DNA from: a virus
Taxonomy: Duplodnaviria; Caudoviricetes
Virus record (IMG/VR): IMGVR_UViG_3300010366_000029
Span: 1 to 36,375 of that record
Strand: one strand, 5' to 3'
DNA: 36,375 nucleotides
Shown here: positions 12,899-34,612 of the stretch, one piece after another
How the letters are laid out: each line of letters begins with the position of its first letter
Position numbering within the stretch: the first letter of the stretch is position 1
Program-made: the position numbers and the translations under genes
Notes under the pieces: generated by a model
What the model was told of the DNA's origin: nothing
The model's database searches: none
What the model saw: the letters and a program-made list of their open reading frames with translations, nothing else

Positions 12899-15153
12899 TT
12901 ATCCAGTACTACCATAAACGCCTCTCCATTCATCCGCCTGTGAAGGTTCGTGTGATTGGTAGACTACATAAACGCAATTCCAAGTACGTGGCGGTTGTAT
13001 TAGCACCAGGGCTCTTTATCCCTGATTTCTGTACCTCTCGGCACAGCCTAGACCATATCACCATCCCAGAGGGATGCCGGGCACTCGTGGATGTTTCACC
13101 ATGGCGATACCGCTGTAGGCTACTCCATCTGGTCGTTGAACCTTCACCCTGTTTCCAGGGCGCTTGGCTGCTGATTGCCCATTGCTGATTGCGTGACAGC
13201 ATCCGTATGCTTTTTAAAACCCTCAAGGCTGTCATTACTGACTCCTTTGTGGTGCCTACGGCTTTAGGGTATTCCAGCAATTCACCCGGTTCTCACCTGA
13301 CGCTTACGCTGCCAGGGGGACTGTACTACTAATAGTACCATCGTCAAAGTAGTCAAAAACAGGACGCAATTGTTATCGCCCAAACTCTTTATTTTAGGCA
13401 TCTTACGGTCACCCGCAAGGTCAGACCATATCATAACCCTTATACAAGGGTTCCGGGCGCTCGTGGGCGGGTTATTCTTGGGAGTCACCGCCTGGTCGTT
13501 AGAGGTTCTGGAGAACCGTAGCCCTCTCCAGCTTCCTACGGGATTGTCTTGAAAGTGTTTGACGATCACTTGAAGATGTTCCCCGTTTCACCCGGTTTGC
13601 ACATGAGGCTTACGCCGCCATGGGGACCGTCTCTTGATCCATTATGGAAAAATTGAGATCATGTTCCCCCTTCTCCGCCATCGCGAACCAGGCCGTCTGG
13701 CTGGTGAGGTAATGGCTCAGGGAGTACGTGATGTCTTCCTGCATCAGCGCATTGATCTCGTTATTGGCCGTGAAAGGCTTACTCTCACTGCCTAACGTCT
13801 CACGCACTGTGGCCCAAAAGTTATAGTGACACATCACATGCCCCATGCTTTGCAGCACCGGGATGTTGCGCTCGTTGGTTTGCCCATGGAAATTGGTAAT
13901 CGCGGCTTGTATGCCGGTCAACCCAATCTGCGCCGAGGCTGAGTTAATGTTGCTTCTTGCGACACCATCGAGACCTACGTGGTTGGATGATACAAGAGCA
14001 GCACCATCAAATGTGGTATAAGCAGATGTCGAGAACGCGAAATTCAAAACATTATGTGCATCAACCTCTAACCTGTAATTCGATACTCTCCTTAGCTCGC
14101 TGGCTAGCATATCCATCACGCCATATAACTCGTCTGATTAGTCCTATAACTTTCGTTACAGGTCGGACTTTATCTTCGCTAAAGGCACGTACCGACCGTT
14201 GCTATCTTTCGGTCGCCCAATAACGTCAGGCTTAAAGTCTCTGAGGCGTTCCGTTACAATGTCGTGAAGTTCTTGATCACGGGCACCATGGTTATGCAGC
14301 AAACGACATTGGCTAAACAACCAAAGTTCGCGCTTTGTATATGGAGCATTTGCTGCTACCGAGAGCCGACTTTCACAGAACTCACGTGTCATAGATGCCT
14401 GGGGACGCTTGGTCACAAGATAAGGCTCGATCACATCAAGCAAGGCCTTCACACGCTTACAACCTTCCCACACATTCCTGTATGAAGCAGCCCATGTTGA
14501 TCGCCGCGACTTAAGCGATTGCTTATAACCAGGAGACGTGTAGCGCGAAGCAATATTCCTGGCATGATCAATGAAAATTTCATTGGTATTTGATAGCGTA
14601 ATAACAGGCTTAATACCAATTTTGCAAACATTACGCCTGTCCGCGTCAATCCCTCGACGCCGGAAGCCAGGAATACTAATTGAGCCTTCACCTTCAATCG
14701 CCGCCACGAGCCACCCCAGGTCAAATGCTTCTTGAAACGTTACTGCCTGCGGATTGTCCAATACAAAGGATTCTTGCATCATGAGCACCTTTGTCTCTCA
14801 GGATATCCCCGCATATTGCCCGATCCAGCGCCACGAGTTTGAACTATACTAGTTCAATTTGGACGCCACATTTCGTATGTGACCTCGAACCCGGAGCCAT
14901 AGGCAACTGCTGTATGCGTCTTGGCATTGCCCAAAATGGGGGAATCCATCGGGAACGCATTCCCCTCCGGTTTCATCCCCATCGGACCAAGACCGCTGAT
15001 CTGCCTATTATTATAGGCTTGCCATGGCATGTCTATCACATTCACCCATTGCGGAAATTCCAGTGGACGCCTCCGTCCGGTCTCCATGTACACCCGGTAA
15101 ATCCCAGGTGCCAGCAGTGCCGAGTAGGAGTTGGTACGGATCGGAATGGGCAT
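12899..15153 (-). CDS. major capsid protein (Mu gpT-like), spliced: exons 15153-14863, 14134-13637, 13366-13340, 12991-12899; 302 aa
   Basis: Joined exons read in frame: ...YGSGFEVTYEMWR|DELYGVMDML...HDLNFSIMD|RPVFDYFDD|PRTWNCVYVVYQSH...EWRGVYGSTG*; family motifs SGLG, KPEG, FDGAALVSSNH, YLTSQTAWF, WRGVYGS; AGGAGG RBS. Confidence 0.92.
12992..13339 (-). ncRNA. group I intron 3 (348 nt, ORF-less, IA-like)
   Basis: 5' exon ends GAU pairing GUC (U-G wobble); P AAUUGCUGGAA, Q AAUCAGCAG, R UCAACGACCAG, S UGAUAUGGUCU; P9 GAGA tetraloop; terminal G. Confidence 0.92.
13367..13636 (-). ncRNA. group I intron 2 (270 nt, ORF-less, IA-like)
   Basis: P1 GGAU/GUCC with U-G; P10 CGUC/GACG; P4 ACGGG/CCCGU; P7 GACCA/UGGUC; P3 CCGGGUG/CGCCCGG; P9 GUGA tetraloop; terminal G. 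Confidence 0.93.
14135..14862 (-). ncRNA. group I intron 1 (728 nt) carrying a homing endonuclease
   Basis: P 14817-14806, Q AAUCCGCAG 14755-14747, R UCAGAGACUUU 14244-14234, S AAGAUAAAGUCC 14176-14165; P1 GGCGU/GCGCU, P10 ACGAGUU/AACUCGU, P9 GAAA tetraloop; both boundaries could shift together by 1 nt. Confidence 0.92.
14156..14788 (-). CDS. intron-encoded single-motif LAGLIDADG homing endonuclease
   Basis: LGWLVAAIEGEGSISI motif, ITLSNTN, LLDVIEPYLVTKRPQA; start may be ATG 14782 or 14779. Confidence 0.88.
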   Translation of the reverse strand: MLMMQESFVLDNPQAVTFQEAFDLGWLVAAIEGEGSISIPGFRRRGIDADRRNVCKIGIKPVITLSNTNEIFIDHARNIASRYTSPGYKQSLKSRRSTWAASYRNVWEGCKRVKALLDVIEPYLVTKRPQASMTREFCESRLSVAANAPYTKRELWLFSQCRLLHNHGARDQELHDIVTERLRDFKPDVIGRPKDSNGRYVPLAKIKSDL

Positions 15154-15169
15154 ACGCTATGTCCTCCTG

Positions 15170-15643
15170 TTAGAGCGCGTTATCCAGTTGCAGCCAGGTA
15201 AAGGCCACGCGCCCTTGCACCGTACCGGCTGGATCAATCAACGATTCGACTCTGAGCCGCACCGCCGTGGTCTCGGCCAGGTCGATATACCACAGACCAC
15301 TCGTGCCATCCTTCGCTATCCCGTATCTCGTGCCACGCTGGGCCACGGCTGACGTACCCGTGCCAAACGAACCCGAGTTATCGACACAGCCTACCCACTG
15401 ATCTGGCGTGTCAATCCGGCTCATATAACAGTCCGTCGAGCCATAGCCCGCTGTGGCCATGTCCGACTGGGCAATCCCCAGGATGGTGTTGAGCGCCGGG
15501 TCCGCCGCCGCTTCCACAGCCAGACCAGCCGTGGCAATGACGGGCGAACCCACCCGGAAGCTCGTGGCTGCGGCCTTGGGCATATAGGCCGTCACGACGC
15601 CCAGACCATTGGGGCGATACGGTTGAATCGGAGTCAGGGCCAT
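15170..15643 (-). CDS. capsid decoration/cement-like protein
   Basis: 157 aa A/G/T-rich, immediately upstream of the capsid gene, AGGAGG RBS. Confidence 0.65.
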   Translation of the reverse strand: MALTPIQPYRPNGLGVVTAYMPKAAATSFRVGSPVIATAGLAVEAAADPALNTILGIAQSDMATAGYGSTDCYMSRIDTPDQWVGCVDNSGSFGTGTSAVAQRGTRYGIAKDGTSGLWYIDLAETTAVRLRVESLIDPAGTVQGRVAFTWLQLDNAL

Positions 15644-29653: not shown

Positions 29654-30058
29654 CTAATCCGCGTTAAAGCCCCGTGAGGTGGCTTTGTCGTTGACCTGTG
29701 TGGATTCCTTGATGGTGTCCACGATGGTTTGGAGTTGTGTGGGATCAGGGACGCCAAAGAAGACGACGCTATGATCCCAGGCACACATGAGGGGATTGCC
29801 CGCCACCGTATTGGTGGTGCTACGTCCTAACCCCAGCATCTCATCCAACGACACGCCAAACGCCTCGACCAACTGTAAGAGCAGGTCAAGAGACGGTTTG
29901 CCCTTGCCTTGTTCGATACGACCAATATGCTGCCCACTCTCCGCCCCTAAGCGTTGGGCAAAGTCTTTTTGACTTAACTGCTCGCGTTTCCGTAACTGCT
30001 GCAACCGTTGACCAAACAGTTTGAGCCGGGCTTCCCTCTCCGAGGGTGGTGCGGACAT
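29654..30058 (-). CDS. XRE-family repressor (CI-like orientation)
   Basis: FGQRLQQLRKREQLSQKDFAQRLG...IEQGKGKPSL. Confidence 0.88.
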   Translation of the reverse strand: MSAPPSEREARLKLFGQRLQQLRKREQLSQKDFAQRLGAESGQHIGRIEQGKGKPSLDLLLQLVEAFGVSLDEMLGLGRSTTNTVAGNPLMCAWDHSVVFFGVPDPTQLQTIVDTIKESTQVNDKATSRGFNAD

Positions 30059-30159
30059 ACTGCCCCCTTTGTTTGTGACATAACGCCTCGGTCACGCCCA
30101 TCCGAATTTTCTATACCTCCCATAACTCTTTCTTATTGCTACGGGAACAGTATAACTTG

Positions 30160-30176
30160 TGAACCTACTAGGTTCA
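30160..30176. promoter_or_regulatory. candidate operator palindrome
   Basis: TGAACCTA-C-TAGGTTCA between divergent XRE genes. Confidence 0.6.
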
Positions 30177-30298
30177 AGTATAGACACTACAAGGTTTTTT
30201 TGGTTGTAGTGTCGTGATCATTACGGTAATGTGTGGCAACTAAACAAGTTCATATGGGTGGTCATACATCATGTCAAGGGCTGGAGGAGGGGGCAGGC

Positions 30299-30532
30299 AT
30301 GTTGGGGACACTATTACGTACCACACGTCACGGGTTACATCTGTCGTTAGCGGAAGCCGCCGCACACATTGGCATTAGCCAGCAATATCTGGGTCGCCTG
30401 GAAAATGGGCGTCAATCACCCTCGCTCAAGCTGCTCTGTCGTCTCCGGAGGGTCTACAAACTGCCGGACCCGTTGCTCGATACGGTCGATCCCGAGGCCG
30501 ACCACGATCCCGCGTGCGCTGTCTGTCCCTAG
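30299..30532 (+). CDS. XRE-family regulator (Cro-like orientation)
   Basis: LSLAEAAAHIGISQQYLGRLENGRQSPS; GGAGG RBS. Confidence 0.85.
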   Translation: MLGTLLRTTRHGLHLSLAEAAAHIGISQQYLGRLENGRQSPSLKLLCRLRRVYKLPDPLLDTVDPEADHDPACAVCP

Positions 30533-30801
30533 TACCGCCCATAGCCCCCGTTGAGTGGTTGGGTGGGCTGGAGGCCGTGACGTGGTGGTGGTGTGACTGG
30601 CGCTGCATCGGACTGCGAAGTCCTCACCATCTCGTGCTCGTGCTCGTGCTCACTGATGCCGTGGCGGATGAGCCGGACAATTTTTCCTGAGACGCTGAGA
30701 TCTTCGGCATGCGCCGCCGCCTTCACGGCTTCAAACAATTCGGGCGTCAAACGAATGAGCAATTTGTGATACGTCCCACGCTGTGGTTGCCGTTCTGCCA
30801 T
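30529..30801 (-). CDS. Arc-like ribbon-helix-helix regulator
   Basis: KLLIRLTPELFEAVKAAAHAEDLSVSGKIVRLI. Confidence 0.78.
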   Translation of the reverse strand: MAERQPQRGTYHKLLIRLTPELFEAVKAAAHAEDLSVSGKIVRLIRHGISEHEHEHEMVRTSQSDAAPVTPPPRHGLQPTQPLNGGYGRY

Positions 30802-30881
30802 GGTGCCCACACCCTTTATGGTATATACTAAAGATATCTTTATGAGACTATCATAGCACTACACAGAGGATAGCACATGAC

Positions 30882-34075: not shown

Positions 34076-34612
34076 ATGCCTTTCAAAGAGAAACAGAAAG
34101 ATAGCGATTGGAGAAAAACACGCTACGCCACTGATCCTATCTATAGATCAAAAGTTATTGCTCGCAACCTACGATGGCTACAGACACATCGGGAAAACGC
34201 CAGAAACGCCACACGTCGTTGGCAAGAAAATCATCCTGATGCATACCTTAAAACATCTAAGCGTTATCAAATAACGCATGCAGATGCTATTAAAGAACAA
34301 CAAAAAAAATGGAGAAAAGAAAATAGAGAAAAACTATCTATTAAAAATGCAAGACGCCGAGCAACACAGTCTAACTCACCAATAAATGATTTAACATTAA
34401 AACAATGGGAATTAATAAAATCACATTATAAGAAAACCTGTGTATATTGTGGAAAAAAGCCTAAACAACTAACAAAAGACCATATTATTCCATTATCAAT
34501 TGGAGGAGAACATACTTTTACCAATATAGTTCCTGCTTGTAGTTCATGTAATTCAAAGAAAGGAGTAGGAAAAGTACTCATCCCTATACAGCCATTATTG
34601 TTGACATACTAA
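34076..34612 (+). CDS. free-standing HNH endonuclease
   Basis: CVYCG...[31 protein letters not shown]; basic helical N-terminus; visibly AT-rich. Confidence 0.92.

What the first reader, a model, noticed from the sequence alone, without database searches (positions are those of the whole stretch)
14125..14180. Intron 1 appears to end in omega-A instead of the near-universal omega-G
Seen: the 3' end reads ...AAAGUCC GA CCUGUAAC GAAA GUUAUAGG ACUAAUC A|GAC GAG UUA. Three clues put the splice before the G: the P1 U-G wobble falls after UGG CGU; CGU|GAC restores W-R-D-E-L-Y with the acidic residue expected in this capsid family; and P9.0 (GA after P7 pairing with UC) normally abuts omega, which here is A. 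The P7 G-binding G-C pair is intact. The alternative, CGUC|AC, keeps omega-G but needs a C-G pair at the 5' site and gives His. Either reading is non-canonical. From recall, omega-A is a rare exception described in some coral mitochondrial introns. Inference: the second step may be slow or protein-assisted, with the LAGLIDADG protein a candidate maturase.
Basis: partly seen in the sequence, partly recalled or inferred. Interest (0 to 1): 0.82.

Follow-up and report, generated by a model that had tools for sequence, protein, structure and literature searches.

The report
Phage capsid intron ending in A
A self-splicing-type (group I) intron splits the capsid gene of a soil phage and has an A where these introns almost always have a final G; it likely still splices right after that A, which would mean the ribozyme picks its cut site by base-pairing geometry and passes over a G one base further on, but no RNA was available to show this.

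Summary
A 728-nt group I intron (14862-14135, minus strand) interrupts a phage major capsid gene. It has every core helix and a canonical G-binding pair. A14135 is reproduced by a second assembly, probably of the same sample. Joining CGU|GAC gives a stop-free 302-aa capsid, the length of its nearest intronless relatives; 74 of 80 relatives have Asp here, none His. P9.0 abuts the A and P10 covers exon bases 2-8, the geometry seen in G-ending comparators.

It keeps both canonical signals but frameshifts. No same-site intron and no RNA run were found, so a private, damaging G-to-A change is not excluded.

Odds: exact splicing at A about 0.62, crippled allele 0.2, His junction 0.12. The LAGLIDADG protein looks like an ordinary homing endonuclease; the maturase idea has no support here. 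Omega-A is published for hexacoral mitochondria. This scan noted it before in other phages (unchecked notes).

The parts
14863..15153 (-). Capsid exon 1 (97 codons, ends UGG CGU; U14863 is the -1 base)
14135..14862 (-). Intron 1, group I, 728 nt, no P2, endonuclease ORF looped out of P6a, short 3' tail with a single P9
   Evidence: (weak RF00028 hit on the S/P9 part, E 0.041)
14826..14839 (-). Internal guide: 14831-14826 pairs with exon 1 (P1, G14831 wobble with U14863); 14839-14833 pairs with exon 2 bases +2..+8 (P10)
14747..14823 (-). P3 5' strand, P4, P5 and P5a; J4/5 GAUA/CAAU
14156..14782 (-). Single-motif LAGLIDADG ORF (208 aa from the first ATG), overlapping the ribozyme core at both ends; predicted homing endonuclease
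14165..14246 (-). P6 3' strand, J6/7, P7 (G-binding pair G14239-C14166, bulged A14240), P3 3' strand, P8, J8/7
14136..14164 (-). P9.0 (GA 14164-14163 with UC 14137-14136) enclosing P9 (14162-14143, GAAA loop)
14135..14135 (-). A at the omega position
13637..14134 (-). Capsid exon 2 (166 codons, begins GAC GAG UUA); its first base G14134 is the decoy omega-G of both rival junctions
13367..13636 (-). Intron 2, group I, 270 nt, ends in G; P9.0 abuts it
13340..13366 (-). Capsid exon 3 (9 codons)
12992..13339 (-). Intron 3, group I, 348 nt, ends in G
12899..12991 (-). Capsid exon 4 (30 codons and stop)

Best explanation
This is a group I intron in a phage major capsid gene whose last base is most likely A14135, and it likely splices exactly there to give CGU|GAC and a normal Arg-Asp capsid. 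Shown by sequence: complete core, canonical G-binding pair, U.G at the 5' site, P9.0 directly before the A, a 7-bp P10 on exon bases 2-8. Inferred: step 1 is ordinary (free guanosine attacks after U14863); in step 2, P9.0 and P10 clamp the phosphate between A14135 and G14134 in the active site, so position replaces recognition of a terminal G. The guide strand for P10 is almost free before step 1 (one P1-extension pair, one base shared with the P1 loop hairpin), so exon 2 could dock early. The second step is probably slower than with G and may leak to the neighbouring G. The LAGLIDADG protein most likely only spreads the intron.
For: Asp 74 of 80, His 0 of 80 in intronless relatives; the nine closest (65-84% identity) all WR-DELYG. 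Four stop-free exons sum to 302 aa, the length of 8 of those nine. P9.0: 2 of 2 pairs abut the A; in 16 hand-bounded comparators a full P9.0 abuts omega in 8 and lies only one base back in 0. P10 in register in 15 of 16 comparators; a review places natural P10 on exon bases 2-8 (PMC6155759, passage). All core helices pair and the endonuclease ORF is open. Precedent: hexacoral ND5-717 ends in A (PMC8146996, passages and Discussion) and a related one lacking omega-G gives exactly ligated exons in vivo (PMC6545197, passages).
Against: No RNA seen. One genome only: no same-site intron found in viral, metagenome or genome collections (80/84), so conservation of the A is untested. The G-site is unmodified, and G14134 lies one base away. 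The His-register duplex is computed as more stable (-22.9 against -20.0 kcal/mol). One comparator (L208) uses a P10 shifted by one base, the geometry the frameshift junction needs. A 7-bp P10 is not special to this intron (L140 and L171 have it with G). In mushroom corals more than 70% of ND5 precursors stay unspliced (PMC6545197), a poor fit for an abundant capsid mRNA. A divergent repressor pair suggests a temperate phage, where a damaged capsid gene can persist.
Confidence: 0.62

Rival explanations
1. A recent private change (omega-G to A, or loss of one G from G|G) has crippled the intron: it stalls after step 1 or joins U14863 to A14133 using G14134 as omega, giving a frameshifted 102-aa fragment. 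The phage persists as a prophage or with help from a relative.
For: This junction keeps both canonical signals; the G-site is canonical; 4 of 16 comparators have an exon starting with G and all 4 were assigned omega-G (L189, L171, L173, L149); a one-base-shifted P10 occurs in L208; cI/cro-like regulators at 29657-30529; no second copy found.
Against: P9.0 would lie one base back from omega (0 of 16 comparators); this register has the weakest duplex (-16.5 kcal/mol); no sign of decay in the four exons, three intron cores or the endonuclease ORF; the split terminase is a family trait (5 of 5 relatives), not decay.
Confidence: 0.2
2. Both splice sites shift one base: cleavage after C14862 at a C-G pair and ligation after G14134, giving CGUC|AC and a His capsid.
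For: Keeps omega-G and the frame; forms an unbroken helix, the most stable of the three (-22.9 kcal/mol). The site tolerates Arg in 6 of 80 relatives. A paper title reports two natural introns with C.G at the 5' site (Hur and Waring 1995, PMC307405; title only, from a reference list).
Against: His in 0 of 80 and 0 of 8 relatives, so no intronless allele for it is known; a U.G pair sits one step away with the J4/5 adenosines present (role of J4/5 recalled); P9.0 would not abut omega; it breaks two norms instead of one.
Confidence: 0.12
3. The A is a sequencing or assembly error.
For: Raw reads were not seen; depth is modest.
Against: Two separate assemblies agree over 2,432 bases (also the JGI record).
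Confidence: 0.03
4. Splicing at the A needs the intron's own LAGLIDADG protein as a maturase (an add-on to the best explanation, not an alternative junction).
For: A bacterial LAGLIDADG with maturase-like activity is reported for Thermotoga neapolitana (PMC3984707, passage).
Against: Fold and motif match DNA-cutting homodimers I-CreI, I-MsoI, I-CvuI; the same protein family sits in 11 comparator introns assigned omega-G, so it does not track with omega-A.
Confidence: 0.1

Closest known systems
Hexacoral mitochondrial ND5-717 group I intron (PMC8146996, PMC6545197)
   Same: A in place of omega-G; exact exon ligation is required for an essential protein.
   Different: ND5-717 is an obligatory, vertically inherited mitochondrial intron with genes in P8, with RNA evidence. 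This one is 728 nt, in a phage capsid gene, optional (80 intronless relatives), carries an intact endonuclease, has a G as first exon base, and has no RNA evidence.
Phage capsid-gene group I introns with a LAGLIDADG ORF in P6 (L135, L140, L154, L156, L168, L171, L173, L178, L189, L143, L149 here; published capsid introns in LittleE and Tuc2009, PMC3706429 passages)
   Same: Host-gene class; for the loci here also the U-A variant of P7, the ORF overlapping the core, and the protein family.
   Different: All 11 loci were assigned a final G (hand-set); LittleE's intron ends in G. Different capsid families and sites.
Group I introns with C.G at the 5' splice site (Hur and Waring 1995, title only)
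   Same: Precedent for the His junction.
   Different: Here C-G use would create a residue absent from all relatives examined.

Membership tests
Group I intron (RF00028) | Core helices P3, P4, P6, P7, P8, P9 | tested here: met
   Rfam matches only the S/P9 part at 19.9 bits, below the cut-off of 50
Group I intron (RF00028) | G-binding G-C pair in P7 after a bulged base | tested here: met
   G14239-C14166, bulged A14240
Group I intron (RF00028) | U.G wobble at the 5' splice site in P1 | tested here: met
   U14863.G14831 closing a 6-bp P1
Group I intron (RF00028) | Terminal omega-G | tested here: not met
   A14135 in the only in-frame, full-length U.G register
Group I intron (RF00028) | Self-splicing with guanosine addition and exon ligation | not testable with these tools
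   no RNA run listed
Hexacoral ND5-717 omega-A introns | Omega-A | tested here: met
   by sequence geometry only
Hexacoral ND5-717 omega-A introns | Mitochondrial ND5 site 717 with genes inserted in P8 | tested here: not met
   host is a phage capsid gene (PF25209); P8 is short
Single-motif LAGLIDADG homing endonucleases (I-CreI family) | One LAGLIDADG helix with acidic residue and I-CreI-like fold | tested here: met
   E31/G32 conserved in 100 sequences; model pLDDT 88.6; top Foldseek hits I-CvuI, I-MsoI, I-CreI; no Pfam hit for the protein itself
Single-motif LAGLIDADG homing endonucleases (I-CreI family) | Cleaves a pseudo-palindromic intronless site | tested here: inconclusive
   no clear symmetry in 15 frames of 22 nt round the junction, at most 4 of 11; cleavage not testable
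Group I maturases | Binds its own intron RNA and speeds splicing | not testable with these tools
   none

The most novel reading that the evidence does not exclude
A compact, still-mobile phage ribozyme with an unmodified G-binding site ligates exactly at an A while ignoring a G one base away, using only P9.0 and P10; leak to that G (truncated or His capsid) acts as a built-in throttle on capsid output.
Probability: 0.18. Interest if true: 0.68.

Novelty: new variant of a known kind. Interest (0 to 1): 0.45.

Why it matters
Omega-G is taught as essential for the second step of group I splicing. The published natural exceptions I found are large mitochondrial introns of hexacorals, which are hard to study in vitro. 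This intron is short (under 300 nt once the ORF loop is trimmed) and sets three junctions against each other within two bases: A with correct geometry, G with a C-G 5' site, and G with a frameshift. One transcription reaction and amplicon sequencing would measure how much P9.0/P10 geometry and G identity each contribute to 3' splice-site choice in a natural ribozyme. It also matters for annotation (tools that demand a final G would call His or a frameshift) and for intron-based RNA circularisation, where the terminal G drives side reactions. If it turns out to be a broken allele, it is of little interest.

Tried and rejected
Same-site or sister introns: exon-2 and endonuclease protein scans of viral contigs found none, nor the endonuclease alignment in genome contigs. 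Junction patterns gave 30, 18, 6 and 24 stretches; none encoded this capsid family except the window's own record. Patterns assumed the S element GATAWAGTC and a tail of about 20-81 bases, so other forms could be missed. blastn of the intron against INPHARED phages gave one 30-base chance hit. The exon-1 fragment search returned no candidates. Three sister endonucleases (50-64% identity) lie on contigs whose DNA I could not read; their ORFs stop before the intron end, so their omega base is unknown. No RNA holder listed. A blind P1/P10/frame search ranked U14863 with A14135|G first for this intron, but did not recover sensible G-ending boundaries for most of the other 81 intron ends, so I give it little weight. 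All 55 codon contexts read from fetched intronless loci had Asp, but the fetch patterns required Asp or Arg, so this is not counted. In-frame junctions with omega-G within about 12 bases that keep a 5' U all delete or add residues. Whole-region folding z-scores were unremarkable (-0.90, -1.81), as expected for a pseudoknotted core. Literature searches for omega-A in phage or bacterial introns found no such paper; the library lacks most subscription and older papers, and I read no supplements.

Full report
Setting. The window is a linear IMG/VR phage record, estimated 30% complete, held by one soil metagenome run. Portal, terminase and adaptor genes lie on the minus strand round the finding. 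The gene at 15153-12899 is a major capsid protein: 80 full-length intronless relatives carry PF25209 (79 of 80 rows; Phage_capsid_4). It is split by three group I introns, 14862-14135, 13636-13367 and 13339-12992. The four exons are stop-free and sum to 97+166+9+30 = 302 residues, the length of 8 of the 9 closest relatives.

The observation. A14135 and G14134 are as quoted. A Logan contig of run X1 matches 12969-15400 with no difference at depth 8.73; it may be the same sample. Intron 1 has all core helices: P1 6 pairs, P3 6, P4 6, P5/P5a, P6/P6a, P7 with G14239-C14166 and bulged A14240, P8, P9 8 pairs, P9.0 2 pairs. Rfam scores introns 3 and 2 at 68.2 and 42.7 bits and only the 3' part of intron 1 (19.9 bits), as expected with an ORF in the core.

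Three junctions. One search compared them. A: U14863 joined to G14134, omega A, U.G wobble, W-R-D-E-L-Y, guide duplex -20.0 kcal/mol. B: C14862 joined to A14133, omega G, C-G pair, W-R-H-E-L-Y, -22.9. C: U14863 joined to A14133, omega G and U.G both canonical, frameshift with a stop at codon 103, -16.5.

Protein evidence. At this residue 74 of 80 relatives have Asp, 6 Arg, none His; 8 of 8 further members of the nearest cluster read WRDELYG. So the allele the intron invaded read CGU GAC, and only A restores it. This shows what selection wants, not what the ribozyme does.

RNA geometry. I collected 92 viral loci with the same P7 variant (about 80 distinct intron ends) and fixed boundaries by hand for 16: 11 of the 12 phage introns with the related endonuclease that I examined (L166 dropped, 5' end not located) and 5 of 8 bounded by protein homology (L160, L185, L195 dropped as ambiguous). 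I used a final G as one guide, so 'all 16 end in G' is partly circular; the geometry counts are less so. A full 2-pair P9.0 abuts omega in 8 of 16 and lies only one base back in 0 of 16; P10 is in register in 15 of 16, shifted by one in L208. L171 has the same GA/UC P9.0 followed by G and then an exon G. Introns 2 and 3 of this gene end in G with 2 and 1 abutting pairs. For intron 1, P9.0 abuts A14135 (2 of 2) and would be one base back for G14134. P10 covers exon bases +2..+8 in register A, the range a review gives for natural introns (PMC6155759, passage); such a 7-pair Watson-Crick match occurs at 2 of 36,365 window positions. Register A breaks one norm (omega-G); B breaks two and makes an unseen residue; C breaks the frame and both geometries.

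What is missing. No same-site intron was found in any collection and no RNA run. The G-site shows no compensating change, P10 is no longer than in G-ending L140 and L171, and 4 comparators whose exon starts with G keep omega-G. A divergent pair of repressor-like genes at 29657-30529 suggests a temperate phage (no integrase seen in this fragment), in which a fresh damaging change could survive. Against decay: exons, three intron cores and the endonuclease ORF are intact, and the two-part terminase is shared by 5 of 5 relatives.

The ORF. It is a single-motif LAGLIDADG: profile hits to I-MsoI, I-CreI, I-CvuI, confident model, Foldseek top hits the same homodimers, E31 and G32 conserved. Homing is the default role (established knowledge). 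A bacterial LAGLIDADG maturase is reported (PMC3984707, passage), but the family also sits in 11 G-ending comparators.

Mechanism. Most likely (0.62): ordinary first step, then P9.0 and P10 position the A14135-G14134 phosphate for attack by U14863, with reduced rate and perhaps some leak to G14134. Rivals: crippled allele 0.2, His junction 0.12, sequence error 0.03.

Literature seen. PMC8146996: passages and the Discussion; omega-A in sea anemone ND5-717, proposed to prevent 3' hydrolysis and circles. PMC6545197: passages; exact ligation without omega-G, over 70% of precursor unspliced, no circles. PMC3706429: passages; capsid introns in LittleE (ends in G) and Tuc2009. PMC11878797: passages; no hit for 'terminal' or 'P9.0'. 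PMC2532722 and PMC2588497: passages; P9.0 and P10 aid omega binding. Hur and Waring 1995: title in a reference list only. No paper on omega-A in phage turned up; supplements were not read and older biochemistry is mostly outside the library. Tetrahymena-style naming of P9.0, J4/5 and the G-site is recalled.

Earlier notes of this scan. Twelve findings in at least 11 other genomes describe A-ending phage introns, one claiming RNA support. They are unchecked, were not tested here and are not counted as evidence; none matches this sequence or genome.

Verdict. Real feature, best read as an omega-A group I intron, a variant with a published precedent in hexacoral mitochondria. Worth a simple splicing assay because three junctions compete within two bases, but it rests on one genome without RNA. 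Interest 0.45.

Noticed in passing
L154 (minus strand, about 2400-1790): A phage group I intron with no P9 hairpin: only five bases (AAUAG) follow P7 before the exon. Boundaries rest on a 6-pair P1, an in-register P10 and an open frame T-T-F-D-A-V-L-K.
   Followed up: partly
window 14134-13940 and 12991-12899: Third-position GC drops in the first 65 codons of exon 2 (28 of 65, against 72 of 101 in the rest; window chosen after looking) and in exon 4 (9 of 31), while other genes run 0.63-0.73. Possibly co-conversion tracts brought in with introns 1 and 3.
   Followed up: partly
window 25097-23186: Terminase large subunit is in two overlapping ORFs (437 and 202 aa); 5 of 5 related phages also have it in two parts.
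   Followed up: partly
window 13366-13340: A 27-nt capsid exon between introns 2 and 3; exon skipping would keep the frame.
   Followed up: no
window 29657-30810: Divergent HTH repressor-like pair and an Arc-like gene, suggesting a lysis-lysogeny switch.
   Followed up: no
L144, L152, L162, L190, L192, L210, L221: Group I introns that appear to interrupt ubiquitin-like genes of giant-virus-type records (recognised from recalled motifs).
   Followed up: no
L166, 324-1900: A distant PF25209-like capsid gene with an intron at another site, apparently holding two endonuclease ORFs.
   Followed up: no
window 34076-34612: Free-standing HNH / endonuclease VII-like gene.
   Followed up: no
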